From an uncultured Candidatus Saccharibacteria bacterium (GTDB lineage: Bacteria; Patescibacteriota; Minisyncoccia; Phycocordibacterales; CAIZIN01): DNA of 47,887 nt. This document shows positions 7,484 to 46,722 of this stretch, one piece after another. A model generated the notes under the pieces. That model saw only the letters and a list, made by a program, of their open reading frames with translations. It was not told the DNA's origin and made no database searches. Both the position numbers and the translations under genes were made by a program. Position 1 is the first letter of the stretch. The number at the start of each line of letters is the position of its first letter. The stretch covers positions 1-47,887 of the forward strand of contig CAYZZT010000001.1 of NCBI GenBank assembly GCA_964483025.1, in the 5' to 3' direction.

Positions 7484-7548
7484 GGCTGACGGGGTTTTCT
7501 TTTTGGGGGTTTTTTGGTATAGTACTTGCAATTATCGACACCGTTTGT

Positions 7549-12175: not shown

Positions 12176-12516
12176 TTCTTTGTATTTGTTTTGAATTTAA
12201 TATTTTGGATTTTGATATTGTTTCGAATTTCGAGCTTCGTGCTTCGGATTTAATACAAACTAACTTGGATCTCCGGGATTACCCACAAGTATTTTTCTGC
12301 TAAAAAATCTTCTGGGCACAACTCGCCCAAAAGTATTTTTCTGCTGAAAAATCTTTTCGTCATGCCTCAGCTCGACAGCTTCCGGCCTTGCGTTCGGGTC
12401 ACGTATAATTTCTTGTTAGAAATTTACTCGACCCCGACTCAGTCGCCTTCGCTCCTTCCGTCTTTCAATCTGATACCCATCAGATTGAACCCATCCCGAC
12501 TTCACGAGGATGACAG
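12176..12516. repeat. composite MITE-like repeat cluster
   Basis: gtttcgaatttcgagcttcgtgcttcgg module (also near 42560). ttttctgctaaaaaatcttct modules (also near 30085, 40280, 40995). Ends cccgacttcacgaggatgacag. Confidence 0.7.
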
Positions 12517-12527
12517 AAAAGATGGGA

Positions 12528-27240: not shown

Positions 27241-27242
27241 TT

Positions 27243-27860
27243 ATGCACTGGGATATTTTGGATGAAAAAAGAAAAGAAATTCTCCCGTATTTTTCTGAAT
27301 TAAAGGAATATGGTTTTTATCTTGCTGGCGGTACAGCTTTGGCGTTAATTATTGGCCACAGAGACAGTATTGATTTTGATTTTTTTACTGAAAAAGAATT
27401 TGATACTGAAAAACTTTTTGACGATTTAGTTTCTGTTTTTTCTCCACATCAAATCACGAGAACTCAAGTCGAGAAAAACACATTGTCTATTCTAGTAGAT
27501 GAACATATTAAAATAAGTTTTTTTACGTATAAATACTCTTTGTTGGAGGAGACTACCAAGACAGAATATTTTGATATTGCTTCACTTTCTGATATTGCCT
27601 GTATGAAGATAAATGCAGTGGTAAATAGGGCTACATTGAAGGATTATATTGATTTGTATTTTATTCTTAAACAAAAAACTTTGTCAGAAATTATGGAGAG
27701 TTTAAAGATAAAAATGCCAGAACTAGATAATTTACTTGCATTAAAATCCATTATTTATTTTGGGGATATTGATGCAAATGAGCCAATTATTTTCAAAACA
27801 GAGAAGGTCTCTCTTGAAGAAATTAAAAGTTGCTTAATTAAAGAGGTGAAAAAACTATAG
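27243..27860 (+). CDS. nucleotidyltransferase AbiEii/AbiGii-type toxin family protein
   Basis: GFYLAGGTALALIIGHRDSIDFDFF motif characteristic of the DUF1814/AbiEii family. 205 aa. Confidence 0.65.
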   Translation: MHWDILDEKRKEILPYFSELKEYGFYLAGGTALALIIGHRDSIDFDFFTEKEFDTEKLFDDLVSVFSPHQITRTQVEKNTLSILVDEHIKISFFTYKYSLLEETTKTEYFDIASLSDIACMKINAVVNRATLKDYIDLYFILKQKTLSEIMESLKIKMPELDNLLALKSIIYFGDIDANEPIIFKTEKVSLEEIKSCLIKEVKKL

Positions 27861-27923: not shown

Positions 27924-28018
27924 GTTTTTTATTTAAATAGTAGAACAATTTTCTTTCTTCGTGATATAATATAAGTAATAAAATTTATAAAGCTATTTTA
28001 AATTTTAAACCTGGATCC

Positions 28019-28178
28019 CCGCATTCGCGAGGATGACATAAAACATAATCGTGGGTACACTCGTTGTTTTGTGTCATTTTTAAATTTTACATTTTTAACA
28101 ATATAACCTGGATCCCCGGAGTACCGAGGACGGAAAAAAATGTAATCGCTTCGCTTCTTATTTTTTAACCGATTTGAA
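28019..28178. repeat. MITE-like repeat cluster upstream of pilB
   Basis: Two cctggatcccc...gaggaYg modules, each followed by a hairpin tail (gacataaaac...gttttgtgtc). Confidence 0.7.
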
Positions 28179-29917: not shown

Positions 29918-29937
29918 GTTTGATTACAAACCTATTC

Positions 29938-30150
29938 TCGCAGACTAACGCTGACTAGACGCAGAACGACGCAGACTTGAATTCAGAATCCGTATTGTCA
30001 TCCTTGCGAATGCGAGGATCCATGTTCGTATTTAATTTGAATTTTTTACAAAATCTTTATCGGTGAAAGTTTTGTGTCGCACGGATATTTTTCTGCTGAA
30101 AAATTCCTCGAGCTCGCGCCGTCGCGCTCGCTAGGCTCCCCAAAACTTCC
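29938..30150. repeat. MITE-like repeat cluster
   Basis: cgcagac-type short repeats, tgtcatccttgcgaatgcgaggatccatg hairpin, ttttctgctgaaaaatt module. Confidence 0.7.
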
Positions 30151-30293
30151 ACACTCAACGATTTTGTAAACCATTCGTGCATTTTGATTTATTTAGAAGT
30201 ATCCCCCCAAACACTTTTTTGGTTGGTGTGTGAGGGGCTCAGAGTAGTGTCTGTGAAATAGAAATAAACATACATACATGATACAATTTCTTT

Positions 30294-30644
30294 ATGAAAA
30301 GAATAATGATTTATTTTATTGGACCATTTTTATATCTATTGTTTTCTATGTTTACCCTTGTTTCTCAAGTAAAACATATTGGATTTGATGGAGTCTATAA
30401 TTGTGCTATGTTTGGAAATTTAGAATGTTCTTGGTTTGATTATATATTTAGGAGTTGGATAACCACATCTTTAATATTGGGTGTGTTGTTTTGGTTTATT
30501 GTTTCATACTTGGTTGCTAAATTTGTTTTTTATTTAATAAATTTATATAAATCAAAAAAAATTAAAAAATTTTACATTTATATATCAATTCTAGTTATAT
30601 TTATTATTATAATATTTTCTTTATATAATCGAGGAGGGCTATAG
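30294..30644 (+). CDS. integral membrane protein, 116 aa
   Basis: Three hydrophobic segments, very AT-rich. TGaTACAAT 6 nt upstream of the ATG. Confidence 0.5.
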   Translation: MKRIMIYFIGPFLYLLFSMFTLVSQVKHIGFDGVYNCAMFGNLECSWFDYIFRSWITTSLILGVLFWFIVSYLVAKFVFYLINLYKSKKIKKFYIYISILVIFIIIIFSLYNRGGL

Positions 30645-30725
30645 TCCACAAGTACACGAAATATAAGCAAATTTAACTGTCAAAATTTGCTTTTGTTGTG
30701 TCGAAATCTGTGGTATACTATATAT

Positions 30726-30968
30726 ATGAAAAAGATTCATTTGCTAAAAAATAAGCAACTTCCAGTTTTTGTCGAAAAAGACGAAGACGGTATTTATGTT
30801 GTTGAATGTCCTCTTTTTAAGGGCTGTTATTCTCAAGGCAAGACAGTGGATGAAGCTATAAAAAATATAAAAGAAGTTGTGGAACTTTGTTTAGAAGAAA
30901 AAGACAATAGGGATACAATGAAATTTTATTCTCCTAGGGAAATTAGTTTACATACGATAACCGTATAA
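30726..30968 (+). CDS. hicB: HicB family antitoxin
   Basis: YVVECPLFKGCYSQGKTVDEAIKNIKEVVELCLEE matches the HicB N-terminal fold signature. TGgTATACT 6 nt before the ATG. Confidence 0.75.
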   Translation: MKKIHLLKNKQLPVFVEKDEDGIYVVECPLFKGCYSQGKTVDEAIKNIKEVVELCLEEKDNRDTMKFYSPREISLHTITV

Positions 30969-30971
30969 TCA

Positions 30972-31190
30972 ATGCCAAAGATTCCATCTGTTTCTTTTAA
31001 AAAAGTTATAGGTGCTTTAGAAAAATGTGGGTATGTGATTTCCCGACAAAGGGGAAGTCATATTAGAATGTGTCACAATTCAGAATGTCCAGTTACTATT
31101 CCAGCCCATAACCCAGTGGCTCGTGGAACTTTGAGGAAAATTTTAAGGGATTCAAAGTTGTCGGTGGAAGAATTTATTGAATTACTTTAA
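30972..31190 (+). CDS. hicA: HicA family mRNA interferase toxin
   Basis: KKVIGALEKCGYVISRQRGSHIRM...IPAHNP...GTLRKILRD matches the HicA/YcfA pattern. Confidence 0.8.
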   Translation: MPKIPSVSFKKVIGALEKCGYVISRQRGSHIRMCHNSECPVTIPAHNPVARGTLRKILRDSKLSVEEFIELL

Positions 31191-31332
31191 TTTTGCACTT
31201 GTTTTGAAAAATTTAGAAATTATTTATCCCAGATGATGCAATAAACTGGGACTTGAAAATTATAAATTAAAAATTATAAAAAAATAGTCCTCCTATTTCA
31301 TAAATAGTCTATTTTTTGATATAATATGAGTA

Positions 31333-32541
31333 ATGAAATTCTTTTATACATCAGTCGCACCAGATGGAGAGCGTAAAAGTGGAACGCGTGAAGCTTCCGA
31401 CAAATTTCAGCTTGCAAATGATTTAAAAGCTGAAGGGGAAATAGTGCTTTCTGTAAAAAAAGCAAAAAAGGCTGAATTTTTTTCTTTAAATTTTTCTTTT
31501 TTTAATCGTGTAAAAACTCATGAGAAGATCATTTTTGCTAGAAATCTAGCTTCAATGCTTGAAGCGGGGCTTGCTATTTCTCGCGCTCTTTCTGTTATTG
31601 AAAGGCAAACAAAAAATGTTGGATTGAAAAATATTGTTGTATCAATAAATGATGATATAAAAAAAGGAAAATCTTTATCAGCAGGAATGAAAATGTTTCC
31701 TAAGATATTTCCACCAATGTTTGTTTCGATGGTTCTCTCGGGGGAAGAATCTGGAAAACTTTCTGAGGCCCTAAATGTTGTTGCTTCACAAATGGAAAAG
31801 ATGTATTTACTTCAGAAGAAATTGAAGGGAGCGTTGATATATCCTGCTGTTATTATTTTTGCAATGATTGGTATTGCTATTTTTATGTTAATTTATATTG
31901 TTCCAACGCTTGCAAAAACATTTAAAGAAATTGGGACCGAACTTCCTGCGAGTACACGATTTATAATATGGATTAGTGATACCTTTCAGGCACATATGAT
32001 TTTGGTATTGACTTCAATTATTTCTATCGTGGTTTTATTGGTTTTGGCTGGTCGCACAAAGATGGGAAAAAGAATGTTTGATTATTCTTTTCTCCACGTT
32101 CCACTAATCTCAGGGCTTGTAAAAGAATCTAATTCAGCTAAAACTACACGAACTCTTTCCTCCCTCCTTACTTCGGGTGTTTCTGTTGTGGAGGCATTAA
32201 GCATAACAAAAGATGTTTTACAAAATTCATATTATAAAGAAGTGATTGAGAAAGCAAAACATAATGTAGAAATTGGAGCACCGATGTCAGAAGTTTTTGC
32301 TGGATATGAAAATTTATATCCTGTTTTTGTGGGTGAAATGATTGCTGTTGGAGAGGAAACGGGTGATTTGGGAGGGACCCTTTTGCGGGTAGCTGTTTTT
32401 TATGAAGAAGAAGTAGAACAAAAAACAAAAGATATGTCCACAATTATTGAGCCATTTTTAATGCTTTTTGTGGGAGTGGCTGTTGGTTTTTTTGCAATTT
32501 CAATGATCTCACCTATTTATTCAATTGTTGATAAGATTTAA
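31333..32541 (+). CDS. pilC: type IV pilus platform protein PilC (GspF family)
   Basis: Two T2SS-F domains, three TM segments, 402 aa. TGaTATAAT 7 nt before the ATG. Confidence 0.9.
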   Translation: MKFFYTSVAPDGERKSGTREASDKFQLANDLKAEGEIVLSVKKAKKAEFFSLNFSFFNRVKTHEKIIFARNLASMLEAGLAISRALSVIERQTKNVGLKNIVVSINDDIKKGKSLSAGMKMFPKIFPPMFVSMVLSGEESGKLSEALNVVASQMEKMYLLQKKLKGALIYPAVIIFAMIGIAIFMLIYIVPTLAKTFKEIGTELPASTRFIIWISDTFQAHMILVLTSIISIVVLLVLAGRTKMGKRMFDYSFLHVPLISGLVKESNSAKTTRTLSSLLTSGVSVVEALSITKDVLQNSYYKEVIEKAKHNVEIGAPMSEVFAGYENLYPVFVGEMIAVGEETGDLGGTLLRVAVFYEEEVEQKTKDMSTIIEPFLMLFVGVAVGFFAISMISPIYSIVDKI

Positions 32542-32544
32542 CTC

Positions 32545-33480
32545 TTACCAATCTTGAAGAGGAGACATTTGACTGCTCGTGTTCACATCCACACCTGTAT
32601 TTTTGTATGGGGCAGGATTTTGTTGGTAGATGATAGATGGCTCTGGATTCACTATTTTTGGTCTAAGACTAACTTTGGTCTCAGTGGTAGTGCTTATTGT
32701 ATTATCATTATTTTGTAAAGTATTTGAGGTAGTAGAGGTATTATTTATTGCATTTTCTAAATTAATTATAGTGTTTTCTGTATTCCTAATTACTTCTATC
32801 TGTTTAGTGATTTCATTTGAGTTACTATCCGAGTTATTTTTAATTGATTCTTTTATGGCTGTTTCAGCAATATTTATGGTAGTAATGACTTGTTTTATTT
32901 CAAAGACACTACCAGTAATAACATTTCTGTATGAATTTATTTGTTCGTTTGAAAGGCCAGAATCATTTGAGGAAAGCTCAAAAACAATACTTTGTATTTG
33001 TTCTACATAAGACTCAATATATAAGACAGCTGTTTTGATCTGATTAATCAAGACTTGGTCTGTTTCCAGAGAGTGTTTATTATTCTCCTCCCAAGTTAAT
33101 AATAATTTGTTAATTTTTAAACGTTGAGCGTTTATTTTATCTTCTATTTTTCTATTTTTTGTTTTAATTTGGATTTGTGGGTTAAGAGAGTCTGCATCTT
33201 TGAAAAAAATATTTGTCTTATCTACCAAACTTTTAATTTTTAAATATTGTTCTAGTGATACCTGCATTGCGTATGATTTACTTCGTAGTTCATCTAGTTG
33301 TTTTTTCTCCAAATCTATTTTTTGTTTAGCTATTTCTAAGTCAGCTAAATTTTTATTTGCTACCATATTATTAGAAACCATTTTTTTTACTTCCTTAAAT
33401 AAATAGAAACATGCAAATATAACAAAAATAGATAAAACTATTGTAATTAAAATATAAATGTTTTTTTTAGTTTTATTCAT
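32545..33480 (-). CDS. membrane-anchored coiled-coil protein, 311 aa (last gene of the pseudopilin operon)
   Basis: N-terminal TM helix and an N/I/K-rich coiled-coil body. No family recognised. Confidence 0.5.
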   Translation of the reverse strand: MNKTKKNIYILITIVLSIFVIFACFYLFKEVKKMVSNNMVANKNLADLEIAKQKIDLEKKQLDELRSKSYAMQVSLEQYLKIKSLVDKTNIFFKDADSLNPQIQIKTKNRKIEDKINAQRLKINKLLLTWEENNKHSLETDQVLINQIKTAVLYIESYVEQIQSIVFELSSNDSGLSNEQINSYRNVITGSVFEIKQVITTINIAETAIKESIKNNSDSNSNEITKQIEVIRNTENTIINLENAINNTSTTSNTLQNNDNTISTTTETKVSLRPKIVNPEPSIIYQQNPAPYKNTGVDVNTSSQMSPLQDW

Positions 33481-33489
33481 TTGTTTTTC

Positions 33490-34932
33490 TTATTTTATTT
33501 CTTCCCAAGATAGTGTTATATATTGATCGGAAGTGAGTGGAAAGCTTGGTGGGGGGCTGTAAAGTAAATGGCTATCATAATTTAAATTACGAAGCTGATA
33601 ACCAGTGCCATCTGTATAAGCAAAACCATAACGGATGGCGCTAGCTATCATGCCATTTAATGTTAGGGTATTTCTTTTGTAGTAGGTACTAGAGCAATCA
33701 GATTCATAGTAAAATCTACCGACACGACCTTTTTGGGCAATTAAGGATGCATCAATTTGTAAATTATCATCACTTATTAGTCCAACATTAATATTATTTT
33801 GGGCGATTAATCCTATTGTATCAGAGCCATCATAATTAGTGTAAAGTAGGTCATTGTTAATTGTGATATTTTTTCTAGTACTAGTATTATCTGGCAATAC
33901 AGCTGCTACAATATTTACTCGAGCACTATTTATTTTGCCTTCCACCCAAATATTATCCTCTAAAAAAATAAGGCCATTGTTTGGCATGGGGAAATTACCA
34001 ATAGAAGATTCATTTTGTATGCTCCATTTTTCATTCGAACAGGTGTCCTTAGAATAAAGTTTGGTAACTTTTTTTAAATCAAAAGTATCGTTAGTTTTTA
34101 AGATAATATGATATCCTTGTGAGCCAGAGCTAGCTCTAAAGTAGCCCTTATCTACAGCATCAATTTTCATCTCTGCGATATCAGCAGTAATGCCAGTAAA
34201 ATCTACCTCTGGAACTGGGAAGAGACGGCCAGCAGTAAAAATATCCGGTCTTGAGGGTATTGGGTTTGGGGGGAATGTGTCCACTGGCGAAACGTGAGTG
34301 TGTACACCGTATTCATTATTACTTCCACTGTGGTCCGGATCGTCATATGCAGTAACGCCACTTGTGATAATATTGTAAATTAAGCCGTCAAAACGAATAC
34401 CTTTATTGGAGTGAACTGGCCCATAGATTGTTGTGCCCTCGCCAAAACGCATAACATCATTTGTGACTACAGCATATTTAGCAATTGAAGGTTTAGCAAA
34501 TTTTGCTTGAATGGTCCGAGCGATACTTGGTTCCGCGTCTGTCCTGCCGGTTGATTTTACTACAACAAGAGTGGATCCTAAAGGTGGAGGTGTAATATTT
34601 AATGTAAAAGTTCCAATCTTATTATCATTTTTGTCATAAAAATCATGTACATAAGGTCCAGCTGTGCCCGTACCATCCTGATAATCTGTGGGAGCATGAG
34701 CTAAATGCCAGCGATAATAATCAATTCCCGCTTCAGCTATTTGAATAGAAAGCTCTCTACTGCCGGCTTGTTTGGATGATTTAATATCAATTACCGACCA
34801 GCCAGTCAGTGCTCCTAATATATATACTGCAATAGTGCCAAAAACCAGTACCTGAATTAAGATATATCCCCTATTTTGACAATCCTTTAAGTGGAACGAT
34901 ATAGTATTTTTTTTAAAAATATTTTTAATCAT
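33490..34932 (-). CDS. PilX-N-like pilus-associated protein, 480 aa
   Basis: N-terminal RGYILIQVLVFGTIAVYILGAL hydrophobic segment followed by QIAEAGIDYY, which resembles the PilX N-terminal domain. Overlaps the upstream pseudopilin gene by 4 nt. Confidence 0.6.
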   Translation of the reverse strand: MIKNIFKKNTISFHLKDCQNRGYILIQVLVFGTIAVYILGALTGWSVIDIKSSKQAGSRELSIQIAEAGIDYYRWHLAHAPTDYQDGTGTAGPYVHDFYDKNDNKIGTFTLNITPPPLGSTLVVVKSTGRTDAEPSIARTIQAKFAKPSIAKYAVVTNDVMRFGEGTTIYGPVHSNKGIRFDGLIYNIITSGVTAYDDPDHSGSNNEYGVHTHVSPVDTFPPNPIPSRPDIFTAGRLFPVPEVDFTGITADIAEMKIDAVDKGYFRASSGSQGYHIILKTNDTFDLKKVTKLYSKDTCSNEKWSIQNESSIGNFPMPNNGLIFLEDNIWVEGKINSARVNIVAAVLPDNTSTRKNITINNDLLYTNYDGSDTIGLIAQNNINVGLISDDNLQIDASLIAQKGRVGRFYYESDCSSTYYKRNTLTLNGMIASAIRYGFAYTDGTGYQLRNLNYDSHLLYSPPPSFPLTSDQYITLSWEEIK

Positions 34933-35543
34933 AAATTATCTTTCAAATTCCTTATAGAAACTTGGGTTGTCATATATAATGGGCCGGGAGATTTTAGTAT
35001 ATCTTCATCTATAATTAAATTTATTTTTATTAATCTAATTGAGGAAATATTTACTGGTTGACTTAATGGGGGAGAGGTACCGTCATAATTAGTATCGTAA
35101 TAATTGAAGATTGAAGTAGTGGCATTGGCAATTCCATTCGCAAGTTTTATTATTTTTTCGTCTGTTGGGTTATAGGTTGCGCCGGTAGGATTTATTACTC
35201 CTTTATAAAAAGTTGTTCCGCTTAAAAAATACCGAATCTTTTCAACATCAGAGTCACTATCTATATTACTATAAAAAGTTAAGGAAGAAGTGGCAGCCTG
35301 ATCAATATAATAAGAACCAGCATTAGAAGGGGACATCGAACGCACTTCAACAGTAAAGTTTTTTAATATTTGCCTCGCACTTTCTTGAGCTACTAGATTT
35401 GAGCCCGTGTATTTATTTAAAGAAAAAATATCTATCTGGAATCTTACTAGAGCAATTCCGATGAGTGTAAATATAAAAATAGCTACAAATATTTCTATTA
35501 TAGTGAAACCTTGTTTTTTTGTTTTCAATAATGTTTTTTTCAT
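34929..35543 (-). CDS. prepilin-type N-terminal cleavage/methylation domain protein (pseudopilin)
   Basis: KKQGFTIIEIFVAIFIFTLIGIAL class III signal with Glu at +5. Confidence 0.8.
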   Translation of the reverse strand: MKKTLLKTKKQGFTIIEIFVAIFIFTLIGIALVRFQIDIFSLNKYTGSNLVAQESARQILKNFTVEVRSMSPSNAGSYYIDQAATSSLTFYSNIDSDSDVEKIRYFLSGTTFYKGVINPTGATYNPTDEKIIKLANGIANATTSIFNYYDTNYDGTSPPLSQPVNISSIRLIKINLIIDEDILKSPGPLYMTTQVSIRNLKDNL

Positions 35544-35546
35544 GAT

Positions 35547-36929
35547 TTATTCAGCAAGAATTATTTCTTTTTGTTGCCAGGATCCAGAAACTGTCACTGA
35601 TGTAGTTTGTGTGGTATAACCAGCTTTAGAAATTTCTAAATTATAATTATCTGGATTAAGGCCAGTAAAAAATACTTGTCCACGGGCTAAGCAGTCAGAG
35701 GCCTCAGTTGTGGTTAGTGTACTGCTATAGGTAGCATTACTTAATTTTACACTTGCATTAGATAATAGAAGACCTGTAGTAGCGTCTTTAACATTTACTA
35801 AGATGCTAGATGATGCCACAGGGGCAACAATAAATGTTAAATTATTAGTAGTACCGGAGTTTATAGAAAAAATACTTCCTGGAATAATACCTGCTAAAAT
35901 ATAAGTCTGATCTGGGAAAATAGACCTGTATTCATCAGTATCTAAATTCTTAATGCTAAAATTTCCAGAGCTGTCTGTTGTGCTAGTGGCGGAATATTTG
36001 TAGATGATAGGGCTAGTTCCAATTATTTTTGTGCCTCTTAAAAAGAAATCAATGTTTGGTATTGCTTCACATGCGGTGCCAATACTTTTAACATTTATGG
36101 TGCTGGCCGGATCGATAATAAAACTGATTTCTGTCAATTGTTGGGTCAAAACAGTCGCATCTATTTTGTCTGGCGTTGGATTGGAGGGGTCTCCAATCGG
36201 GTAGGTTCTATCACTGGTGTATCCTGTTTTAGAAACATTTATTTTATAAGCTTGATTTCCAGGTGGGGCATTCACAATCTGAAGCAACCCCTGATTGTTG
36301 GAAGTATCATCTATTGTAAAATTTGGAATGGTTTGTTTGTTTTCAATATGAATATTTGCATTAGGAACAGGTGTACCTGTAGAATCAAAAACTTTGATAA
36401 AGATGGCACCATTAGTAGAGGAGCTTTCTAAATTTTTTGGAGCAATATTTGTTGTCACAAAAAGAGGTGGAAAATTACGACAGGTCGCACAATTAATTTC
36501 TAGTTCTGCCAGTTTGTAATCAGCTGGAGAAGTATCTTTCGGTGTTCCATCAATAGTGCCATCAAACGGATCATCAATATTTCTTATGGTAGTTTTTATA
36601 GTAAATTCTTTACCATCACGAATGAGAGTTTGATTGGCTGGTATCTTTCCAAGAGGCAAACTACCTACAATTCCTACATCCTCATAAGATAAATTACGCA
36701 AGATTTCAAATTGTTCATTGGCCAAAGCCGTAGCTGTTATTTTTGAACGGGAAAGCATAACCACATTCATGGTTATGATATAAGCTTGATAAACACTTAT
36801 AGCTAAAATCATAAAAACTGCCGCACCGATCACAGCCTCCACTAGTGTAAAACCACTGCTTTGTTCTAGTTTTACAAAACAAATTTTTTCTCTATTTTTA
36901 TAAATTTTAATCATATCAATTTCTCTCAT
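35547..36929 (-). CDS. large pseudopilin-like protein with prepilin-type N-terminus, 460 aa
   Basis: SSGFTLVEAVIGAAVFMILAISVY prepilin-like segment, followed by beta-rich T/S/N repeat domains. Start could instead be ATG 36914. Confidence 0.7.
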   Translation of the reverse strand: MREIDMIKIYKNREKICFVKLEQSSGFTLVEAVIGAAVFMILAISVYQAYIITMNVVMLSRSKITATALANEQFEILRNLSYEDVGIVGSLPLGKIPANQTLIRDGKEFTIKTTIRNIDDPFDGTIDGTPKDTSPADYKLAELEINCATCRNFPPLFVTTNIAPKNLESSSTNGAIFIKVFDSTGTPVPNANIHIENKQTIPNFTIDDTSNNQGLLQIVNAPPGNQAYKINVSKTGYTSDRTYPIGDPSNPTPDKIDATVLTQQLTEISFIIDPASTINVKSIGTACEAIPNIDFFLRGTKIIGTSPIIYKYSATSTTDSSGNFSIKNLDTDEYRSIFPDQTYILAGIIPGSIFSINSGTTNNLTFIVAPVASSSILVNVKDATTGLLLSNASVKLSNATYSSTLTTTEASDCLARGQVFFTGLNPDNYNLEISKAGYTTQTTSVTVSGSWQQKEIILAE

Positions 36930-37800: not shown

Positions 37801-37832
37801 CCCCGCCCTTCTTTATGTATTTAAGGGCGGGG
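37801..37832. terminator. GC-clamp hairpin downstream of tpiA (member of the CCCCGCCC-N16-GGGCGGGG family)
   Basis: ccccgcccttctttatgtatttaagggcgggg. Confidence 0.6.
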
Positions 37833-37849
37833 GCGAAAGAATTTTAAAT

Positions 37850-37967
37850 CGACATAAAATAAGAAATGTACTCATGACTATATTTTATGTCGTCCTCGGT
37901 ACTCCGGGGATCCATGTTAATCTAGAAATCAAATTTGGATTTGGATCCCCGCAAGCGAGGATGACAG
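37850..37967. repeat. MITE-like repeat cluster
   Basis: gacataaaat...attttatgtc hairpin, gtcctcggtactccggggatccatg, ggatccccgcaagcgaggatgacag. Confidence 0.7.
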
Positions 37968-40189: not shown

Positions 40190-40217
40190 CCCTTTATTTT
40201 ACACAATATTCTATTTC

Positions 40218-40466
40218 TGTCATTCCCGCGAAGGCGGGAATCCATGAATTCAGATTCTGCAGACTGGATTCACAAGTATTTCTCTGCAAAAGTATTTTTT
40301 TACTAAAAAATCTTTTCCACATGCCTCAGACCGTCGTCTTCCGACCTTGCGCTCAGATACCCATCTGAGCTCACTGAGAAATCTTCTGAACACACCTCGG
40401 CTCGTCAGCCTCCGGTCTTGCGAAAACATACCCATGCTTTCTCACCTGCCTTCGCGGGAATGACAG
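40218..40466. repeat. long composite MITE-like element
   Basis: tgtcattcccgcgaaggcgggaatccatg ... cacctgccttcgcgggaatgacag. Internal modules shared with 12280-12516 and 40966-41135. Confidence 0.75.
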
Positions 40467-40515
40467 ACTGAGGAGAGAGTACCCCCTACTACATAGACAT
40501 GATAGAATAGCTCAC

Positions 40516-42381
40516 ATGAATCAAATCTCAGAACTTCAGAAACTATTGCTTGCAAATCGCGGTATTAAAGAAGATGAAATTGAAATTTTTTTGAACCCTT
40601 CGTATGAAACAGGGGTTTATGATCCGTATTTGATGAAAGATATGGAAAAAGCTGTGGATAGAATTCTGAAAGCAATTGAAGAAAAGGAAAAAATTGGCAT
40701 ATTTTCTGATTATGATGCCGATGGTGTGCCAGGGGCTGTGATGATGAAAGATTTTTTTGATAGAATTGAATACGAGAATGTTTTTTACTATATTCCCGAC
40801 AGGCATTTAGAGGGGTTTGGGCTCAAAGATGATTCGATAACAGAGTGTTCAGACAATGGAGTTAAACTTTTAATAACTATTGATTGTGGAATCACTGATG
40901 TAGGGGAAGTAAAACATGCAAAAAGTTTGGGAATGGAAGTAATAATCACTGATCACCATCTCCCGTCTGTCATTCCGGTGAAGACCGGAATCCACAAGTA
41001 TTTTTCTGCTGAAAAATCTTCTGGCCACGACTCAGCTCGTCAGCTTCCGTCCTTGCAGTCGGGCCCCACCCCGACTTCACAGTCTGAAAATTCAGGACTT
41101 GGATCCCCGCTGAGTACAGCGAGGATGACAAAAAAGAAGAGTAAGTCAGACAGGGGTTCTGATATCCAAAATCTCCCAGACGCCTTCGCCATTCTCGACC
41201 CAAAACAAGAAGGTGACGAGTATCCAGACAAAATGCTTTGCGGTACTGGTGTTGCTTTTAAATTAATACAGGGGATTTTAGCAAAAAACAGATTTGGAAT
41301 AGGCGAAAGCCAAGAAAAATGGTTTCTCGATATGGTGGGTATTGCAACTCTTTCAGACATGGTTCCACTTTTAAATGAAAACAGGACGCTTGCTAGTTAT
41401 GGACTCAAAGTTTTACGGAAAAGTAAAAGGCCGGGCCTTATTGCTCTTTTGAAAAGAGCCGGTGTTGATCAGGGATTAATTTCTGAAGAAGATATTGGTT
41501 TTATGATTGCTCCTCGAATAAATGCAGCTGGAAGAATGGGGCATGCGATGGACGCCTTTAAAATGTTAAGTACAACAGATGAAAAAGAGGCAGAAAAATC
41601 TGCTGATTATATAAATGATTTAAATAATGAAAGAAAGGGGATTGTGGCAAGAATGGTAAAAGAAATGAAAGCAATGCTTTCTACGCGTATTGAACATGAA
41701 AAAGAAAAAGGAGTGATTGTGCTCGGACATCCAGATTGGAAACCTTCTTTGCTTGGACTTGCTGCAAATTCGATAGTGGAAGAACATGGAATGCCTGTAT
41801 TTTTGTGGGGAAGAGAAAGTGGAACTGTTATCAAGGGTTCGTGTCGTTCAAATGGTGTGGTGAATATGGTGGAAATAATGAGGGGGGCTTGCGAGGGTAC
41901 ATTTATTGATTTTGGTGGGCATGCAATGTCGGGAGGATTTTCAGTGGAGGAGGATAAAATACATTTTCTTTCAGATTCTTTAGCAAAAGCATACAAAGAA
42001 GTGCTTGTTACAAGTGATGGAGAATTAAAACAAAATTATAATATTGATACTGTACTTGGTTTAAACGAAGTGAATGAGAAAACATATAAAGATATTCAGA
42101 TGCTTTCACCGTACGGCGAAGCAAACCCAAAGCCAGTTTTTCTTTTTAAGAGTGTAATTGTGAAAAGTTGCGCTCAATTTGGAAAAGAAAAAAATCATTT
42201 AAAAATTACTGTAGCAAAAGATGGCGGACGTACTATTGAGGCAATTTCATTTTTCGCCGATGAAAATAGTTTTATGAAAGAAATAAAAGAAGGAAGTACA
42301 ATTAATCTTGTGGCGAACATAGAAAAATCATTTTTCCGTGGAAGAGGGGAGCTGAGGCTTCGAATTGTTGATGTTGTTTAG
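40516..42381 (+). CDS. recJ: single-stranded-DNA-specific exonuclease RecJ carrying an in-frame repeat-derived insertion
   Basis: DHH motifs DYDADG, ITIDCG and ITDHH; DHHA1 GGHAMSGG. About 65-70 extra residues between DHHLP and LPDAFAILDP. Confidence 0.85.
   Translation: MNQISELQKLLLANRGIKEDEIEIFLNPSYETGVYDPYLMKDMEKAVDRILKAIEEKEKIGIFSDYDADGVPGAVMMKDFFDRIEYENVFYYIPDRHLEGFGLKDDSITECSDNGVKLLITIDCGITDVGEVKHAKSLGMEVIITDHHLPSVIPVKTGIHKYFSAEKSSGHDSARQLPSLQSGPTPTSQSENSGLGSPLSTARMTKKKSKSDRGSDIQNLPDAFAILDPKQEGDEYPDKMLCGTGVAFKLIQGILAKNRFGIGESQEKWFLDMVGIATLSDMVPLLNENRTLASYGLKVLRKSKRPGLIALLKRAGVDQGLISEEDIGFMIAPRINAAGRMGHAMDAFKMLSTTDEKEAEKSADYINDLNNERKGIVARMVKEMKAMLSTRIEHEKEKGVIVLGHPDWKPSLLGLAANSIVEEHGMPVFLWGRESGTVIKGSCRSNGVVNMVEIMRGACEGTFIDFGGHAMSGGFSVEEDKIHFLSDSLAKAYKEVLVTSDGELKQNYNIDTVLGLNEVNEKTYKDIQMLSPYGEANPKPVFLFKSVIVKSCAQFGKEKNHLKITVAKDGGRTIEAISFFADENSFMKEIKEGSTINLVANIEKSFFRGRGELRLRIVDVV
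40966..41135 (+). mobile_element. MITE-like element inserted in frame within recJ
   Basis: tctgtcattccggtgaagaccggaatccacaagtatttttctgctgaaaaatcttct...cttggatccccgctgagtacagcgaggatgacaaaa. Same termini and internal modules as the intergenic copies. Boundaries approximate. Confidence 0.75.
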
Positions 42382-44059: not shown

Positions 44060-45436
44060 TTGATTTACTTTTACACCATCAGTTTTATTTTTGGAATTTT
44101 TTCAAGATTTCTATCTGGAAATTATTTGGTTTTTTTGCTCTTTGTATTTTGCTTAATTTGTGCGTTTTTAGCATTCTATATTTTAACAAAAGAAAAAGTT
44201 TATAGGATTGCAATTTTTCTTTCTTTATTTTTTGTTGTAGGTTTTGTCCGTGCAGATTTTTCAACACTTCAAAAATCACAGTTCGAAAATTTAGAGCAGA
44301 GATATTTAAATCTTTCTGGAATTGTTGTTGTACCACCGAAACTAACAGATAAGGGCTCTAGAATGACTGTGGAGGTATCTGAAATGGGGAATAGTAAACT
44401 TATACGATCTGAGAAAATACTCGTTGCCTATGAAGGTTACGAAAGCTTTGAGTATGGTGACAGGCTCAAAATTGGCGGAGCTTTGGAAAAACCTAAATCC
44501 TTTGATAATGATGTAGGCAAAGAGTTTAATTATCCAATGTATTTAGCAAAGGATGGGATTTTTTTTGTGATGCAAAAGGCGAAGGTTACAAAAGTGGGTG
44601 AGGGGGGTGGAAATTTTTTTATGGATTTCCTATTTAAAGTTAAAGATTCTTTTATTTCTAAAATGCAAACTGTGCTTAGTGGGCCGGACACAGCTTTAAT
44701 GTCTGGAATTCTTCTTGGGGCTCAGGACACAATTGCAAAAAATACGAAAGACGATTTTCAAAAGTCTGGATTGACACATATTTTAGTTCTTTCTGGATAC
44801 AATATTACCATCGTGGGTGTGGCTGTATCTTGGGTATTTCTATTTTGGTTCTCAAAATTTATTTCCTTGGGGTTTGGTGCTTTTGCGATTATTCTTTTTG
44901 CTTTACTTTCTGGTGGGGGAGCTTCCACAGTGCGAGCGACTGTGATGGCTTTGATTGCAATGCTCGGGAAAATTTTAGGAAGAGAAAATGATGCAATTCG
45001 AGCACTTTTTATAGTGGGCTTCTTAATGGTTTTGATAAATCCACTTACGATTATGTATGATCCCTCCTTTCATCTTTCATTTCTTGCAACTTTGGGAATG
45101 ATTTTGTTTTCTAAAAAGGTTGAACTAAAAACAATGTTTATTAAAAACGCAAAACTTCGAGAAATCTTTGCAACCACAATCGCCACCCAACTCCTCGTCG
45201 CTCCATATTTTCTTTGGAGCATGGGCAAAGTTTCCATTATCTCTCTAATATCAAACATTTTCGTTTTACCAATTATTTCCTGGGCGATGCTTTCTGGTTT
45301 TATTACTGGAGTTCTTGGTTACTTCTCATATTACCTTGCTTACATTCCCGGTTTCATATCACACCTTTTTCTTCTATATATCACCACTCTCGCTCACTTT
45401 TTCGCCTCACTGCCATTTGCAGTAATTGGGTTATAA
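44060..45436 (+). CDS. comEC: ComEC/Rec2 family DNA internalisation channel (no metallo-beta-lactamase domain)
   Basis: N-terminal OB/DUF4131-like region, competence domain with SGLTHILVLSGYNITIV, many TM helices. 458 aa, TTG start. Confidence 0.8.
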   Translation: MIYFYTISFIFGIFSRFLSGNYLVFLLFVFCLICAFLAFYILTKEKVYRIAIFLSLFFVVGFVRADFSTLQKSQFENLEQRYLNLSGIVVVPPKLTDKGSRMTVEVSEMGNSKLIRSEKILVAYEGYESFEYGDRLKIGGALEKPKSFDNDVGKEFNYPMYLAKDGIFFVMQKAKVTKVGEGGGNFFMDFLFKVKDSFISKMQTVLSGPDTALMSGILLGAQDTIAKNTKDDFQKSGLTHILVLSGYNITIVGVAVSWVFLFWFSKFISLGFGAFAIILFALLSGGGASTVRATVMALIAMLGKILGRENDAIRALFIVGFLMVLINPLTIMYDPSFHLSFLATLGMILFSKKVELKTMFIKNAKLREIFATTIATQLLVAPYFLWSMGKVSIISLISNIFVLPIISWAMLSGFITGVLGYFSYYLAYIPGFISHLFLLYITTLAHFFASLPFAVIGL

Positions 45437-45468
45437 AGAATAAATAACATAATCTAGACTAAACATAC

Positions 45469-45698
45469 ATACACAAACAAGACGCTATAGCGTCAGTTGT
45501 GTGTATCTTCTATTCGTACCATAGGTAGTACATTATTAAGAGATAACAGATTATCTTTTGTAAATACACAAACAAGACGCTATAGCGTCAGTTGTGTGTA
45601 TGTATATTTTGTTTGTGTTGTCGGCTAGGATTTTTGAAAATACATTTCTTTATTTAATATATACACAAACAAGACGCTATAGCGTCAGTTGTGTGTAT
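45469..45698. repeat. three identical 38-bp palindromic repeats (R1-R3) upstream of the Cas2/PaaX-like gene
   Basis: atacacaaacaagacgctatagcgtcagttgtgtgtat at 45469-45506, 45564-45601 and 45661-45698. Unrelated spacers of 57 and 59 nt. Confidence 0.9.
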
Positions 45699-45776
45699 GT
45701 GGGTTATTGTATTAAAAAATATTCACCCATACACATATTTAAATGCATAAAAAATATAGAAGAGTATAATATTTGT

Positions 45777-46337
45777 ATGGTAAAAGTTGTTAAAAAAATC
45801 CAGAGGGGAGATATCACAAGAACTATTCTAGAAATTGCAAAAGCTACAGGATTGATAGCTACAGCACTAGTTGCTCCTAACGTATTGAGTGCTTTTGCAA
45901 AACTAGGCATCGTTGATTTACATGGGAGACAAAATGAAGTGATAAGACGGGCTAGGAATATTTTAATAAAGAATGGGTGCTTGAAGAAAAATAAGGAAGG
46001 TTTTTTATGTTTGACTGAGAAAGGACAAGAAAAGCTTGATTCCTATAGATTATCAGAGTACACGCTTTTGATTCCAAAAACTTGGGATAAAAAGTGGGGA
46101 GTTTTAATTTTTGATATTCCAGAGTATAGAAAATCTTTGAGAGATAAAATAAGAAAAGAATTAACCAAAATTCATTTTATACGTGTTCAAGATAGTGTTT
46201 GGATTTTTCCATATGACTGCGAAGAGCTTGTTGCACTTCTAAAGGCTGATTTTAAAGTAGGGGAGGATCTACAATATATGGTGGTTCATAAAATTGAAAA
46301 TGATGACAGGCTTCGCAAGGCTTTTCATTTGGCTTAA
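45777..46337 (+). CDS. Cas2-fold / PaaX-C-like protein with putative N-terminal winged helix, 186 aa
   Basis: WDKKWGVLIFDIPEYRKSLRDKIRKELTKIHFIRVQDSVWIFP matches the W-D-x-K-W...FDIPE...LR...L...GF..LQ.SVW.xP signature shared by the PaaX C-terminal domain and Cas2-like proteins. RRARNILIKNGCLKKNKEGFLCLTEKGQEKL looks like a wHTH wing. TATAAT 6 nt before the ATG. Confidence 0.7.
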   Translation: MVKVVKKIQRGDITRTILEIAKATGLIATALVAPNVLSAFAKLGIVDLHGRQNEVIRRARNILIKNGCLKKNKEGFLCLTEKGQEKLDSYRLSEYTLLIPKTWDKKWGVLIFDIPEYRKSLRDKIRKELTKIHFIRVQDSVWIFPYDCEELVALLKADFKVGEDLQYMVVHKIENDDRLRKAFHLA

Positions 46338-46398
46338 AATAAATTTTAATTTGTTTTTATTATTACATTTATTATTTAATAATATTGAACAGAGAGAC

Positions 46399-46661
46399 AT
46401 ACACAAACTTGACGCTATAGCGCCAAGTCTGTGTATGTGGCATTTTTTTATTATTATGATTATGTTTTAGATTGACGATTTTGTACAGTTGTCCTTACTT
46501 AAACACATACACAATGATGACGCTATAGCGCCAAGTCTGTGTATATAGTAGTTTTTATGATTTATTAACAGATTGATTAACCTATGTTTAGGAAAAAACA
46601 TTTTGTATTGTCTCAATTTATATATACACAATGATGACGCTATAGCGTCATCATTGTGTAT
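46399..46661. repeat. three variant 38-bp palindromic repeats (R4-R6) downstream of the Cas2/PaaX-like gene
   Basis: R4 46399-46436 atacacaaacttgacgctatagcgccaagtctgtgtat. R5 46507-46544 atacacaatgatgacgctatagcgccaagtctgtgtat. R6 46624-46661 atacacaatgatgacgctatagcgtcatcattgtgtat (perfect 16+4+16 palindrome). Spacers 70 and 79 nt. Confidence 0.9.
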
Positions 46662-46722
46662 GTATTTTTTTGCAAGAGTATTGAAATGGGGAGTAGTGGG
46701 TTTTATGCGTAGGTTCTTTGAT

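What the first reader, a model, noticed from the sequence alone, without database searches (positions are those of the whole stretch)
40966..41135. MITE-like repeat inserted in frame into recJ, next to the catalytic DHH motif
The recJ ORF stays open for 621 codons. Between DHHLP (40951-40965) and LPDAFAILDP (from 41173) it contains a ~170-bp element with the same termini and internal modules as intergenic copies such as 40218-40466 and 12280-12516 (tgtcattccggtgaagaccggaatcc ... ttttctgctgaaaaatcttct ... ggatccccgctgagtacagcgaggatgaca). This adds about 65-70 low-complexity residues (SVIPVKTGIHKYFSAEKSSGHDSARQLPSLQSGPTPTSQSENSGLGSPLSTARMTKKK...). In typical RecJ proteins only a few residues separate these motifs. 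The arrangement resembles the in-frame palindromic-element insertions known from Rickettsia. It raises three possibilities: the loop is tolerated, the repeat RNA hairpins affect recJ expression, or the gene is on its way to inactivation.
Basis: partly seen in the sequence, partly recalled or inferred. Interest (0 to 1): 0.7.

Follow-up and report, generated by a model that had tools for sequence, protein, structure and literature searches.

The report
Hairpin repeat inserted in-frame in recJ
A candidate-phyla-radiation bacterium carries a mobile hairpin repeat inside its RecJ DNA-repair gene, two codons after the catalytic DHH motif, translated as a floppy 69-residue loop; close relatives have the site empty or filled differently, so this is a tolerated, still-changing piece of selfish DNA, not a dying gene.

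Summary
recJ (40516-42381) is intact at 621 aa. It has 69 extra codons (40966-41172) where 555-aa orthologs have three (LP-GEK-LP). The first 165 nt belong to the window's intergenic repeat family; the last 42 nt are a recJ-specific tail.

New points:
- The termini match the Neisseria NTS/dRS3 "Ssn-related motif" hairpins almost base for base.
- The interior is a roughly 100-nt three-hairpin unit, widespread in metagenomes, with covarying stems and a strict orientation relative to nearby tRNA genes.
- Seven filled alleles of different length and content occupy the same site. All are in frame and share a local junction signature, and they sit as sisters to empty alleles.
- Interiors are far younger than the flanking gene (2% against 16% divergence). 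Divergence between close genomes peaks at the site, which points to recombination and cassette turnover.
- AlphaFold predicts a disordered loop, and codon-position divergence shows purifying selection on the gene.

Best reading: a tolerated, nested, in-frame selfish-DNA insertion in a permissive loop, analogous to Rickettsia palindromic elements. No Ssn-like nuclease or transposase gene lies in the window, so the mobilising enzyme is unknown.

The parts
40516..42381 (+). recJ coding sequence (621 codons plus stop), host gene of the insertion
   Evidence: ORF list. Pfam DHH, DHHA1 and RecJ_OB. PDB RecJ hits at E 2.7e-79. Foldseek top hits are RecJ structures. Synteny PGK-HIT-recJ-RNaseH-ComEC is conserved in orthologous loci.
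40951..40965 (+). Codons for DHHLP (catalytic motif III plus LP), the left edge of the insertion site
   Evidence: D146, H147, H148 and P150 are invariant in alignment A1.
40966..41172 (+). The whole extra segment: 207 nt, 69 codons (S151-N219), replacing the three codons GGG GAA AAA (GEK) of empty alleles
   Evidence: DNA comparison of filled and empty alleles and protein alignment. AlphaFold pLDDT is below 50 with no secondary structure over residues 151-217.
40968..40995 (+). 5' terminal hairpin TGTCATTCCGGTGAAGACCGGAATCCAC, an NTS/SRM-type (Ssn-related motif) repeat
   Evidence: It matches the published SRM degenerate pattern: 6 hits in the window against 0.08 in shuffles. It is a family member. 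The hairpin appears in the DNA and RNA folds. The NTS consensus comes from PMC11893778.
40992..41080 (+). Three-hairpin unit. P1 is 40992-41024 (CCAC-AAGTATTTTTC-TGCT-GAAAAATCTT-CTGG). P2 is 41031-41049 (CTC-AGCT-CGTC-AGCT-TCCG). P3 is 41052-41080 (CTTGC-AGTCGGG-CCCCA-CCCCGACT-TCAC).
   Evidence: Coordinates. There are 112 metagenome stretches with the exact 25-mer. Stems covary across 95 copies. Homologous intergenic copies lie at 12283-12398 and 40287-40421.
41082..41098 (+). Small A/T hairpin module GTCTGAAAATTCAGGAC
   Evidence: Folds. The same module is present in the L007 and L004 alleles.
41101..41130 (-). 3' terminal hairpin in inverted orientation (reverse complement TGTCATCCTCGCTGTACTCAGCGGGGATCC), the 'GGATCCCCGC...GAGGATGACA' variant of the terminus
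   Evidence: Similar variant termini occur at 15425-15450, 28011-28038 and 37889-37912.
41131..41172 (+). 14-codon tail (KKKSKSDRGSDIQN). It is recJ-specific, has the same length in all long filled alleles and ends in [IV]Q[NKS].
   Evidence: 42 nt in window, L003, L004 and L007; also 14 codons in L084. There is no similar sequence next to other termini.
41173..41202 (+). Codons for LPDAFAILDP, the right edge of the site, where alignment to other RecJ proteins resumes
40216..40468 (+). Intergenic copy of the same family just upstream of recJ (NTS hairpin, two unit-like modules, inverted NTS). It sits at the same site as a shorter element with a different interior in L003.
12283..12518 (+). Intergenic copy whose modules are the closest relatives of the recJ interior within the window (86-93% identity)

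Best explanation
The segment 40966-41172 is selfish repeat DNA that landed in the DNA encoding the short surface linker after RecJ motif III (DHH). It has been kept because it stays in frame and is translated as a disordered loop that does not destroy the enzyme.

It is a nested composite:
- a doublet of inverted NTS/SRM-type hairpins, the simple state still seen in ortholog L003;
- a roughly 100-nt three-hairpin unit placed beside the 5' hairpin arm (..GGAATCC|AC..), seen in the window and L007;
- a 14-codon recJ-specific tail.

I infer that the filled haplotype arose once in an ancestor of this Paceibacteria-like clade. Since then it has persisted alongside the ancestral empty (GEK) haplotype. 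It has been moved between genetic backgrounds by homologous recombination; the genome encodes ComEC and type IV pilus genes. Its interior has been remodelled repeatedly between the hairpin termini by insertion, deletion or ectopic conversion.

Shown: the anatomy, the homology to intergenic copies, the filled/empty allele series, the young interior against old flanks, the peak of divergence at the site, purifying selection on the gene, and the predicted disorder.

Inferred: that the loop is translated and RecJ remains active, the single origin, the recombinational spread, and any involvement of an Ssn-type nuclease or other enzyme acting on the hairpins.
For: Anatomy and homology:
- The insert lies between DHHLP and LP, where 555-aa orthologs have GEK.
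- Its termini and modules match intergenic copies.
- The 5' terminus fits the SRM pattern, and intergenic termini fit the NTS consensus with 3 mismatches or fewer: 8 hits against 0 expected (PMC11893778).

Selection to keep the frame:
- The repeat-derived part is a multiple of three: 165 nt (40966-41130), or 168 nt for the stretch 40966-41133 translated. Only the recJ frame of that stretch is open.
- The five intergenic copies examined have lengths that are not multiples of three, and the longer ones carry stops in that frame.
- Seven distinct filled alleles (+14 to +74 aa) are all in frame.

Gene still constrained:
- Window against L007 differs by 8.7/5.8/34.5% at codon positions 1/2/3.
- All catalytic motifs are invariant.

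Loop tolerated:
- pLDDT is below 50 over residues 151-217 while the rest folds as RecJ.
- Unrelated insertions sit in the same loop in distant Patescibacteria RecJ: P0090, P0042 and P0036.
- The P0090 insert is a 72%-GC palindrome in a 48%-GC gene.

Single local origin:
- All 7 filled alleles have [IV]Q[NKS] before LP.
- The four long filled alleles and L084 share a 14-codon tail that is not found beside other termini.
- Empty alleles and outgroups have G/A-E/D-x.

Recombination:
- Filled and empty alleles are sisters, with bootstrap 92-100 for three pairs and 99 for the clade joining empty P0005 to P0001/P0003/P0004, whose filled subclade gets only 64.
- Divergence between near-identical genomes is concentrated within about 200 nt of the site, 15-18% against 1.6-6%, Fisher p between 2e-3 and 5e-15.
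- ComEC and pilus genes are present.

Interior turnover:
- The window and L007 interiors differ at 2 of 100 nt, while the genes differ by 16% and the tails by roughly 40% (hand-aligned from the sequences).
- The L084 and L086 inserts are near-identical in genes that are 73-76% identical.
- The upstream intergenic element has a different interior at the same site in L003.

Not an artefact: the same filled alleles recur in independent ENA, JGI and NCBI assemblies.
Against: - There is no transcript, protein or activity data, so translation and retained exonuclease activity are inferred from sequence constraint only.
- The window's exact allele is known from one contig only.
- No target-site duplication, transposase, RAYT or GIY-YIG (Ssn-like) gene was found in the 48-kb window. 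The mechanism of insertion and of interior exchange is therefore unknown.
- The allele sample is biased: only full-length predicted proteins were retrieved, so frameshifted alleles would have been missed.
- Single origin plus recombination cannot be fully separated from repeated site-specific insertion. Flanks of window against L007 are not elevated in identity next to the shared interior.
- I could not compute surface exposure of the loop from solved structures.
Confidence: 0.75

Rival explanations
1. Repeated site-specific ('homing-like') insertion. The element or elements target this exact position in recJ independently in several lineages, so the filled alleles do not descend from one event spread by recombination.
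For: - Filled and empty alleles are sister pairs in three or four clades.
- Identical or near-identical interiors occur in diverged recJ backgrounds, without clearly elevated flank identity for window against L007.
- The three-hairpin unit shows site preference elsewhere: it abuts ..GAATCG of tRNA T-arms with 17-19-nt duplications, and ..GGAATCC of NTS arms.
- An unrelated GC-rich palindrome sits in the same loop in a distant lineage.
Against: - All filled alleles share the [IV]Q[NKS] junction, and the four long ones plus L084 share a 14-codon tail that is absent beside other copies of the family.
- The empty site CCG|GGGGAAAAA|CTT contains no NTS or GAATC target.
- Divergence peaks around the site fit old linked haplotypes.

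A mixed history is likely: one founding event, then targeted secondary insertions into the resident hairpins.
Confidence: 0.15
2. Exapted or regulatory insert. The loop, its DNA or RNA hairpins, or the NTS site has acquired a function. Candidates are modulating RecJ activity or partner binding near the active site, acting as an Ssn-type ssDNA cleavage site that shapes recombination at recJ, or driving or blocking transcription or translation.
For: - The filled haplotype has persisted over divergence down to about 76% amino-acid identity outside the insert (about 70% counting the insert) and is always in frame.
- Hairpin stems keep complementarity through compensatory changes, for example CCGGT..ACCGG against CCGGC..GCCGG.
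- Recombination breakpoints cluster at the site.
- In Neisseria, NTS repeats modulate the integration of transforming DNA.
- The folds are more stable than shuffles, with z of -4.0 for DNA and -3.3 for RNA.
Against: - The peptide sequence, length and module content differ radically between alleles, from 14 to 74 extra residues. The tail is only roughly 57% identical (hand-aligned from the sequences) where the gene is 84% identical.
- Many close relatives do without the insert.
- Predicted disorder.
- Hairpin conservation is a property of the whole repeat family, not of the recJ copy.
- No Ssn gene was seen.
Confidence: 0.08
3. recJ is being inactivated: the insertion next to the catalytic histidines has killed or crippled the enzyme, and the ORF is a young pseudogene.
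For: The insertion lies two residues from DHH. CPR genomes are reduced and lose repair genes (my general knowledge, not tested here).
Against: - The ORF is intact, with all motifs invariant.
- There is a strong excess of third-position changes between two filled alleles.
- Seven filled alleles are all in frame across a deep clade.
Confidence: 0.04
4. Artefact, or removed element: an assembly chimera that joins a repeat into recJ, or an intervening sequence removed at the RNA level (intron-like) or the protein level (intein-like).
For: Repeats are a classic cause of metagenome misassembly. The insert starts with Ser and ends with Asn, superficially like an intein.
Against: - The same or related filled alleles occur in independent assemblies from ENA, JGI and NCBI.
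- The junctions are in frame in all of them.
- There is no Hint or intein domain. At 69 aa the insert is too small, the +1 residue is Leu, and some alleles end in K or S.
- No Rfam intron or ribozyme match lies in the region.
Confidence: 0.03

Closest known systems
Rickettsia palindromic elements (RPEs) inserted in frame in protein-coding genes (Ogata et al. 2000, 2002; summarised in PMC10969869)
   Same: - A small (about 150 bp) palindromic mobile repeat, present many times in a reduced genome.
- It is inserted in frame into a housekeeping gene and translated as an extra peptide judged compatible with the protein fold.
- It is present or absent between related species.
   Different: - No sequence relationship was tested.
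- The host is a Patescibacteria/CPR bacterium.
- Here in-frame copies are rare: 1 of about 15 copies in the window, and almost none of 115 unit copies in metagenomes.
- The insert is a nested mosaic whose interior turns over in situ.
- The site is immediately next to a catalytic motif.
Neisseria NTS/dRS3 hairpin repeats and neisserial intergenic mosaic elements; Ssn-related motifs (SRM) cut by GIY-YIG ssDNA nuclease SsnA (PMC11893778; PMC1797815)
   Same: - The 28-nt terminus is almost identical: window TGTCATTCCCGCGAAGGCGGGAATCCAT against NTS CGTCATTCCCGCGMAVGCGGGAATCYRG.
- It has the ATTCCC-N8-GGGAAT core and forms a hairpin.
- There are many copies, in inverted pairs bracketing variable modules.
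- It is associated with locally elevated diversity and recombination in a genome that encodes DNA-uptake genes (ComEC, type IV pilus).
   Different: - No ssnA homolog was found in the window, and the rest of the genome was not available.
- This copy is inside a coding sequence and is translated.
- The phylum is different.
- Cleavage by an Ssn enzyme is untested.
REP/BIME/REPIN elements mobilised by RAYT (IS200/IS605-type) transposases
   Same: - Hairpin repeats occurring as inverted doublets with short variable spacers.
- No target-site duplication.
- Stems kept by compensatory change.
   Different: REPs are defined as extragenic. No RAYT or TnpA gene was seen. The sequence is unrelated.
Classical bacterial MITEs found intragenically (ERIC, Correia/NEMIS, Coxiella QMITE1)
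   Same: Non-autonomous, under 300 bp, with terminal inverted repeats; occasional in-frame fusion with host ORFs.
   Different: No TSD and no parent IS were identified. The architecture is modular, not a single conserved element.
Integrative elements that target tRNA 3' ends (att duplication of the T-arm/acceptor)
   Same: A subclass of the three-hairpin unit is bracketed by 17-19-nt direct repeats equal to the 3' end of the adjacent tRNA. The units have a fixed orientation relative to tRNA genes.
   Different: The inserted DNA is only about 110-125 nt and carries no integrase. In recJ the unit abuts an NTS arm instead of a tRNA.

Membership tests
RecJ (bacterial 5'-3' ssDNA exonuclease, DHH superfamily) | DHH, DHHA1 and OB-fold domains, with motifs I-IV including DHH | tested here: met
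   Pfam DHH 3e-19, DHHA1 2e-11, RecJ_OB 1e-24. PDB RecJ hit at 2.7e-79. Foldseek top hits are 8y30, 5f55 and 2zxo. The motifs are invariant in A1.
NTS / Ssn-related motif (SRM) repeats | Match to NTS consensus CGTCATTCCCGCGMAVGCGGGAATCYRG, or to SRM pattern HGTCWYN(0-2)YYVSBRHN(0-5)WNVSBRGN(0-2)RNCYNB | tested here: met
   NTS with 3 mismatches or fewer gives 8 hits against 0 in shuffles. The SRM regex gives 6 hits against 0.08, including the recJ 5' terminus 40968-40995. The recJ 3' terminus is a longer-loop variant that does not match the regex.
NTS / Ssn-related motif (SRM) repeats | Hairpin-forming semi-palindrome with an orientation-defining 5' flank (GTCAT) | tested here: met
   Folds. 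GTCAT is conserved in all copies. Stem positions covary between copies.
NTS / Ssn-related motif (SRM) repeats | Genome encodes a single-domain GIY-YIG (cd10448) Ssn nuclease, often flanked by the repeats | tested here: inconclusive
   No GIY-YIG ORF was found in the 47.9-kb window by motif scan or by Pfam on 40 ORFs. One 85-aa GIY-YIG ORF lies in the unrelated contig L196, flanked by a different inverted repeat. The rest of the genome was not available.
NTS / Ssn-related motif (SRM) repeats | Site-specific cleavage of the hairpin in ssDNA by the cognate Ssn | not testable with these tools
   Requires biochemistry.
MITE | Short, non-coding, multi-copy, with terminal inverted repeats | tested here: met
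   165 nt. Termini TCTGTCAT...ATGACA with inverted hairpins. At least 14 intergenic sites in the window.
MITE | Target-site duplication, and a related autonomous IS supplying the transposase | tested here: not met
   There is no duplication at the recJ junctions: CCG|TCTGTCAT...CAAAAT|CTC against the empty CCG|GGGGAAAAA|CTT. No transposase was found in the window. Only 48 kb was searched, so the IS part is weak negative evidence.
Rickettsia palindromic elements | In-frame insertion in a conserved gene, compatible with the protein fold | tested here: met
Rickettsia palindromic elements | Sequence membership in one of the RPE families | not tested
   No RPE sequences were compared. The resemblance is functional only.
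Intein / homing element | Hint domain, N-terminal Cys/Ser, C-terminal His-Asn followed by Cys/Ser/Thr, and at least about 130 aa | tested here: not met
   69 aa with no Hint domain. The insert ends in QN|L, and in QK or QS in other alleles.

The most novel reading that the evidence does not exclude
The post-DHH loop of RecJ may be a maintained 'landing pad'. On this reading, NTS/SRM hairpins (substrates of Ssn-type ssDNA nucleases) and a previously undescribed, tRNA-T-arm-targeting three-hairpin element are repeatedly exchanged there. The long-lived filled/empty polymorphism would be kept by selection because the insert tunes the 5'-3' ssDNA exonuclease. That enzyme decides the fate of incoming transforming ssDNA and of the elements' own single-stranded intermediates. 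In short, selfish hairpin DNA would be modulating the enzyme that polices it.
Probability: 0.07. Interest if true: 0.85.

Novelty: new variant of a known kind. Interest (0 to 1): 0.55.

Why it matters
- It extends the Rickettsia paradigm of selfish palindromes inside proteins to the Candidate Phyla Radiation, and to a site two residues from a catalytic motif of a recombination nuclease.
- It shows that NTS/dRS3-type Ssn-related hairpins, characterised only in 2025, exist as an expanded family in Patescibacteria and can sit inside a translated gene.
- The allele series is a natural experiment on how much a DHH-family active-site loop tolerates: empty; +14, +16 and +22 residues (hairpin remnants); +36 (hairpin doublet); +65, +66 and +74 (composites).
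- The series also shows how hairpin-bounded cassettes are exchanged in place.
- The interior unit has covarying stems, a strict orientation relative to tRNA genes, and att-like duplications of tRNA ends. It is absent from Rfam and from the searched literature and deserves study in its own right.

Tried and rejected
- **Word-indexed protein search with the insert peptide.** No candidates were found, because the tool needs three shared 5-mers, so that search was wasted.
- **Exhaustive phmmer of the insert peptide against 1.84 billion representatives**. Hits were mostly low-complexity S/P-rich giants plus six short ORFs. The RecO_N hit (P0127, L201) is an element at the end of a truncated ORF followed by a promoter-like sequence, not a clean in-frame case. 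The pilin hit is an upstream mis-start. The PheT-B5 hit is a 77-aa fragment and could not be resolved.
- **Search for a GIY-YIG, transposase or RAYT gene.** I used a motif regex and Pfam on 40 ORFs of the window and found none.
- **Rfam on the window and on unit-bearing loci.** Only tRNAs reached the gathering threshold. No family matches the unit or the insert.
- **Intein, intron and native-linker readings.** All rejected.
- **The 'one discrete 165-bp element' idea.** Rejected: only 4 of about 115 copies of the unit have an NTS hairpin within 60 nt, so the recJ insert is a mosaic.
- **Orientation of the unit relative to protein-coding genes.** No bias was seen, so it is not a UTR, terminator or promoter element of protein genes.
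- **Literature search for the 25-mer sequence.** Nothing was found.
- **MAFFT alignment of filled against empty DNA**. It misplaced the empty allele; I redid it by codon anchoring.
Full report
**Observation.**
The window encodes a complete RecJ (40516-42381, + strand, 621 aa) with DHH, DHHA1 and RecJ_OB domains. Alignments to solved RecJ structures cover residues 9-148/151 and 219-619. They skip about 66 residues that the reference proteins lack: 8y30 has DHH at 167-169 and resumes at 174. The sequence reads DHHLP (40951-40965), then 69 extra codons (40966-41172), then LPDAFAILDP (from 41173).

**Is it repeat-derived?**
Yes.
- The terminus GTCATTCCNGNGNANNCNGGAATC occurs 13 times in the window against 0.01 expected.
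- Repeat finding puts the recJ copy in the same families as copies at 7531, 10113, 12283, 14266, 15354, 24206, 40201 and 42374.
- A sensitive self-BLAST of the insert gives 86-93% identity over 42-72 nt to 12283-12398. It also gives matches to 40287-40421 and 7597-7684, plus 85-93% matches of the 5' terminus to eight other sites (alignment).
- All other copies lie between ORFs. The recJ copy is the only intragenic one in the window.
- Nothing in the window resembles the last 42 nt, the tail.

**Orthologs define the site.**
The protein search found very close orthologs. The synteny PGK-HIT-recJ-RNaseH-ComEC is conserved. GTDB titles place the clade among Patescibacteria/Paceibacteria-like MAGs.
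- Many orthologs are 555 aa and read DHHLP-GEK-LP. These include P0005, which is 97% identical. GEK or a similar tripeptide is also the state in outgroups.
- Seven distinct alleles are filled at exactly this position, with 14, 16, 22, 36, 65, 66 and 74 extra residues.
- At the DNA level the empty site is CCG|GGG GAA AAA|CTT. The window has CCG|TCTGTCATTCC...GAGGATGACA|42-nt tail|CTC. No target-site duplication is visible.

**Anatomy of the insert.**
- 40968-40995: 5' hairpin.
- 40992-41080: three further hairpins (P1, P2, P3).
- 41082-41098: a small A/T hairpin.
- 41101-41130: a 3' hairpin in inverted orientation.
- 41131-41172: the tail.

Single-strand folds show this chain of hairpins and are more stable than shuffles, with z = -4.0 for DNA and -3.3 for RNA. 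Ortholog L003 carries only the two inverted terminal hairpins and a short spacer. L007 has the same architecture as the window. L004 has another interior. L084-L086 keep a short AT-rich hairpin. The terminus types are swapped between alleles: the window has the ATTCC type at 5' and the GGATCCCC type at 3', and L003 has the reverse.

**What the termini are.**
A literature search for dRS3 led to the 2025 description of the Ssn nuclease family (PMC11893778). The Neisseria Transformation Sequence is CGTCATTCCCGCGMAVGCGGGAATCYRG. The window's termini, for example TGTCATTCCCGCGAAGGCGGGAATCCAT at 40218, match it nearly base for base.
- Eight sites match with 3 mismatches or fewer, against none in shuffles.
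- The paper's degenerate Ssn-related-motif pattern hits six sites against 0.08 expected. One of them is the recJ 5' terminus at 40968-40995.
- In Neisseria these hairpins are cut in ssDNA by the 94-aa GIY-YIG protein SsnA and modulate the integration of transforming DNA. They also bracket variable modules and mark regions of elevated diversity.
- I found no GIY-YIG gene or transposase gene in the window. The enzyme partner is therefore untested.
- Such hairpins are confined to the close clade: the window, L001-L003, L005, L007, L008, L069 and L039. They are absent from 80 more distant Paceibacteria recJ loci.

**What the interior is.**
- The 25-mer AAGTATTTTTCTGCTRAAAAATCTT of P1 occurs in 112 metagenome stretches.
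- Aligning 95 copies shows a conserved unit of about 100 nt: P1, then CTC-stem-CGTC-stem-TCCG (P2), then CTTGC-variable stem-loop-CTCAC (P3).
- P2 covaries abundantly. One pair reads GC 40, CG 20, AU 16; another reads CG 58, GC 14, UA 11.
- The unit is not in Rfam and its sequence is not in the searched literature.
- Only 4 of about 115 copies have an NTS hairpin beside them. The unit is therefore a separate module.
- 33 of 115 copies lie within 200 nt of a tRNA gene, and in all 33 the tRNA is on the opposite strand. There is no orientation bias toward protein-coding genes.
- A subclass is bracketed by 17-19-nt direct repeats equal to the 3' end of the adjacent tRNA. These repeats end at ..GAATCG|GTCAC.
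- In recJ the unit abuts the NTS arm ..GGAATCC|AC.
- The recJ insert is therefore best read as nested: a hairpin doublet first, then the unit beside one arm.

**History.**
A neighbour-joining tree of RecJ without the insert makes filled and empty alleles sisters.
- P0002/P0008 has bootstrap 100, P0016/P0021 has 100 and P0017/P0018 has 92.
- P0005 groups with P0001+P0003 at 99. The filled subclade within that group gets only 64.

Yet all seven filled alleles share [IV]Q[NKS] before LP. The four long filled alleles and L084 also share a 14-codon tail found nowhere else. Empty alleles share the outgroup state. This points to one local origin plus recombination.

Identity profiles support this.
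- Window against L001 differs by 17% in the 210 nt around the site but by 1.6% downstream (p = 5e-15).
- The same pattern holds for window/L003, L001/L003 and L007/L087.
- L003/L007 are unusually similar just to the right of the site.

The genome encodes ComEC and type IV pilus components, so transformation-driven allele exchange is plausible.

The interior, by contrast, is young.
- Window and L007 differ at 2 of 100 interior nucleotides. Their recJ genes differ by 16% overall and 34.5% at third positions.
- Their tails are only about 57% identical, by my hand alignment of the sequences.
- L084 and L086 share a near-identical short insert in genes that are 73-76% identical.
- The intergenic element upstream of recJ sits at the same site in L003 with a different interior.

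Interiors are therefore exchanged between the hairpin termini faster than the surrounding DNA diverges.

**Consequence for the protein.**
- The recJ copy is the only one examined whose length is a multiple of three. The stretch translated (40966-41133, 168 nt) is open in only the recJ frame. The longer intergenic copies carry stops in that frame.
- Between two filled alleles, codon positions 1/2/3 differ by 8.7/5.8/34.5%. The gene is therefore under purifying selection.
- AlphaFold gives a confident RecJ fold, with residues 151-217 at pLDDT about 25-30 and no secondary structure. Foldseek returns RecJ structures first.
- Distant Patescibacteria RecJ proteins also have extra residues in this loop. 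One is a 72-nt, 72%-GC palindrome in a 48%-GC gene. The loop is therefore a recurrent permissive site.
- In-frame copies elsewhere are rare.

**Verdict.**
It is a tolerated in-frame insertion of selfish hairpin DNA, functionally like Rickettsia palindromic elements. It is built from NTS/SRM-type hairpins plus a separate three-hairpin unit, and it segregates as an old, recombining, internally unstable presence/absence polymorphism. Inactivation, artefact, intein or intron, and native linker are all disfavoured. Any function of the loop or of the hairpins, and the enzyme that moves them, remain open.

Noticed in passing
window 40992-41080; loci L089-L200 (e.g. L094:184-301, L145:4518-4635, L190:2887-3004): A roughly 100-nt three-hairpin unit occurs in 112 metagenome stretches, with strongly covarying stems and no Rfam match. 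33 of 33 copies near a tRNA gene lie on the strand opposite to it. A subclass is flanked by 17-19-nt duplications of the tRNA 3' end (..GAATCG|GTCAC). In L145 and L190 the unit sits between the D-arm and anticodon arm of a partial tRNA-Ala copy upstream of the intact gene. It could be a miniature tRNA-targeting mobile element or a structured RNA.
   Followed up: partly
window 318-372, 1062-1116, 3151-3205 (+): Three full-length matches to the type III hammerhead ribozyme model (35-39 bits, E 4e-6 to 4e-5). They are below Rfam's gathering score of 48.5 and lie within a 68-nt repeat family (D12).
   Followed up: partly
window 45461-45700 and 46391-46663, flanking ORF 45594-46337: Six copies of a 48-nt palindromic unit (ATACACAAACAAGACGCTATAGCGTCAGTTGTGTGTAT), spaced about 95-117 nt apart. 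They lie on both sides of a gene with a PaaX_M / Cas2-like domain, so they could be operator-like arrays. PaaX_M genes also neighbour recJ in L084 and L202.
   Followed up: no
window 26051-26198 (also 25906-25938, 37801-37833): A 36-bp tandem repeat GGGTTACCCGCGCCCTTAAATACTTAAAGAAGGGCG (about 4 copies), with related single hairpin copies elsewhere.
   Followed up: no
window 16406-16657 and 17903-18154: A 252-nt direct repeat (96% identical), each copy containing an NTS hairpin and a terminator-like hairpin. The two copies bracket a single AAA_14/DUF4143 ATPase gene (16777-17901), which looks like a repeat-flanked gene cassette.
   Followed up: no
window 14284-14365 and 15372-15450 around ORF 14479-15102: A NYN-domain (PIN-like nuclease) gene is flanked on both sides by NTS-type hairpin elements. 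In L001 an Abi_alpha gene occupies the HIT-recJ spacer where the window has a repeat element (40216-40468). Both suggest cassette exchange at hairpin sites.
   Followed up: no
L202:3001-4773 (protein P0090): A distant Patescibacteria RecJ carries an unrelated 72-nt, 72%-GC palindromic insert (gene GC 48%) in the same post-DHH loop. P0042 and P0036 have 7 extra residues there. Several insert-bearing RecJ proteins read LPPAF/LPPAY after the loop, whereas empty ones mostly read LP[KDE]A.
   Followed up: partly
L201:53-526 (protein P0127): A RecO_N ORF runs into a full NTS-unit-NTS element (core about 93% identical to the recJ one) and stops 14 codons later, just after a TTGACA-N17-TATAAT promoter-like sequence. 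This could be a truncated recO or an element at a gene end. The contig is only 608 bp.
   Followed up: partly
L196:1800-2066 (-): An 85-aa single-domain GIY-YIG ORF (Pfam 3.8e-15), bracketed by the inverted repeat ATCCGGGCACCTAA / TTAGGTGCCCGGAT. It lies in a contig that also carries the three-hairpin unit. It is of the same size class as SsnA but is not flanked by NTS hairpins.
   Followed up: partly
window 20100-20381, 26968-27860, 30687-31190: Toxin-antitoxin and abortive-infection genes: RelB, DUF6922 + AbiEii, and HicB + HicA. They are interspersed with the repeat elements, alongside a type IV pilus/competence gene set (28181-36929, 44060-45436).
   Followed up: no
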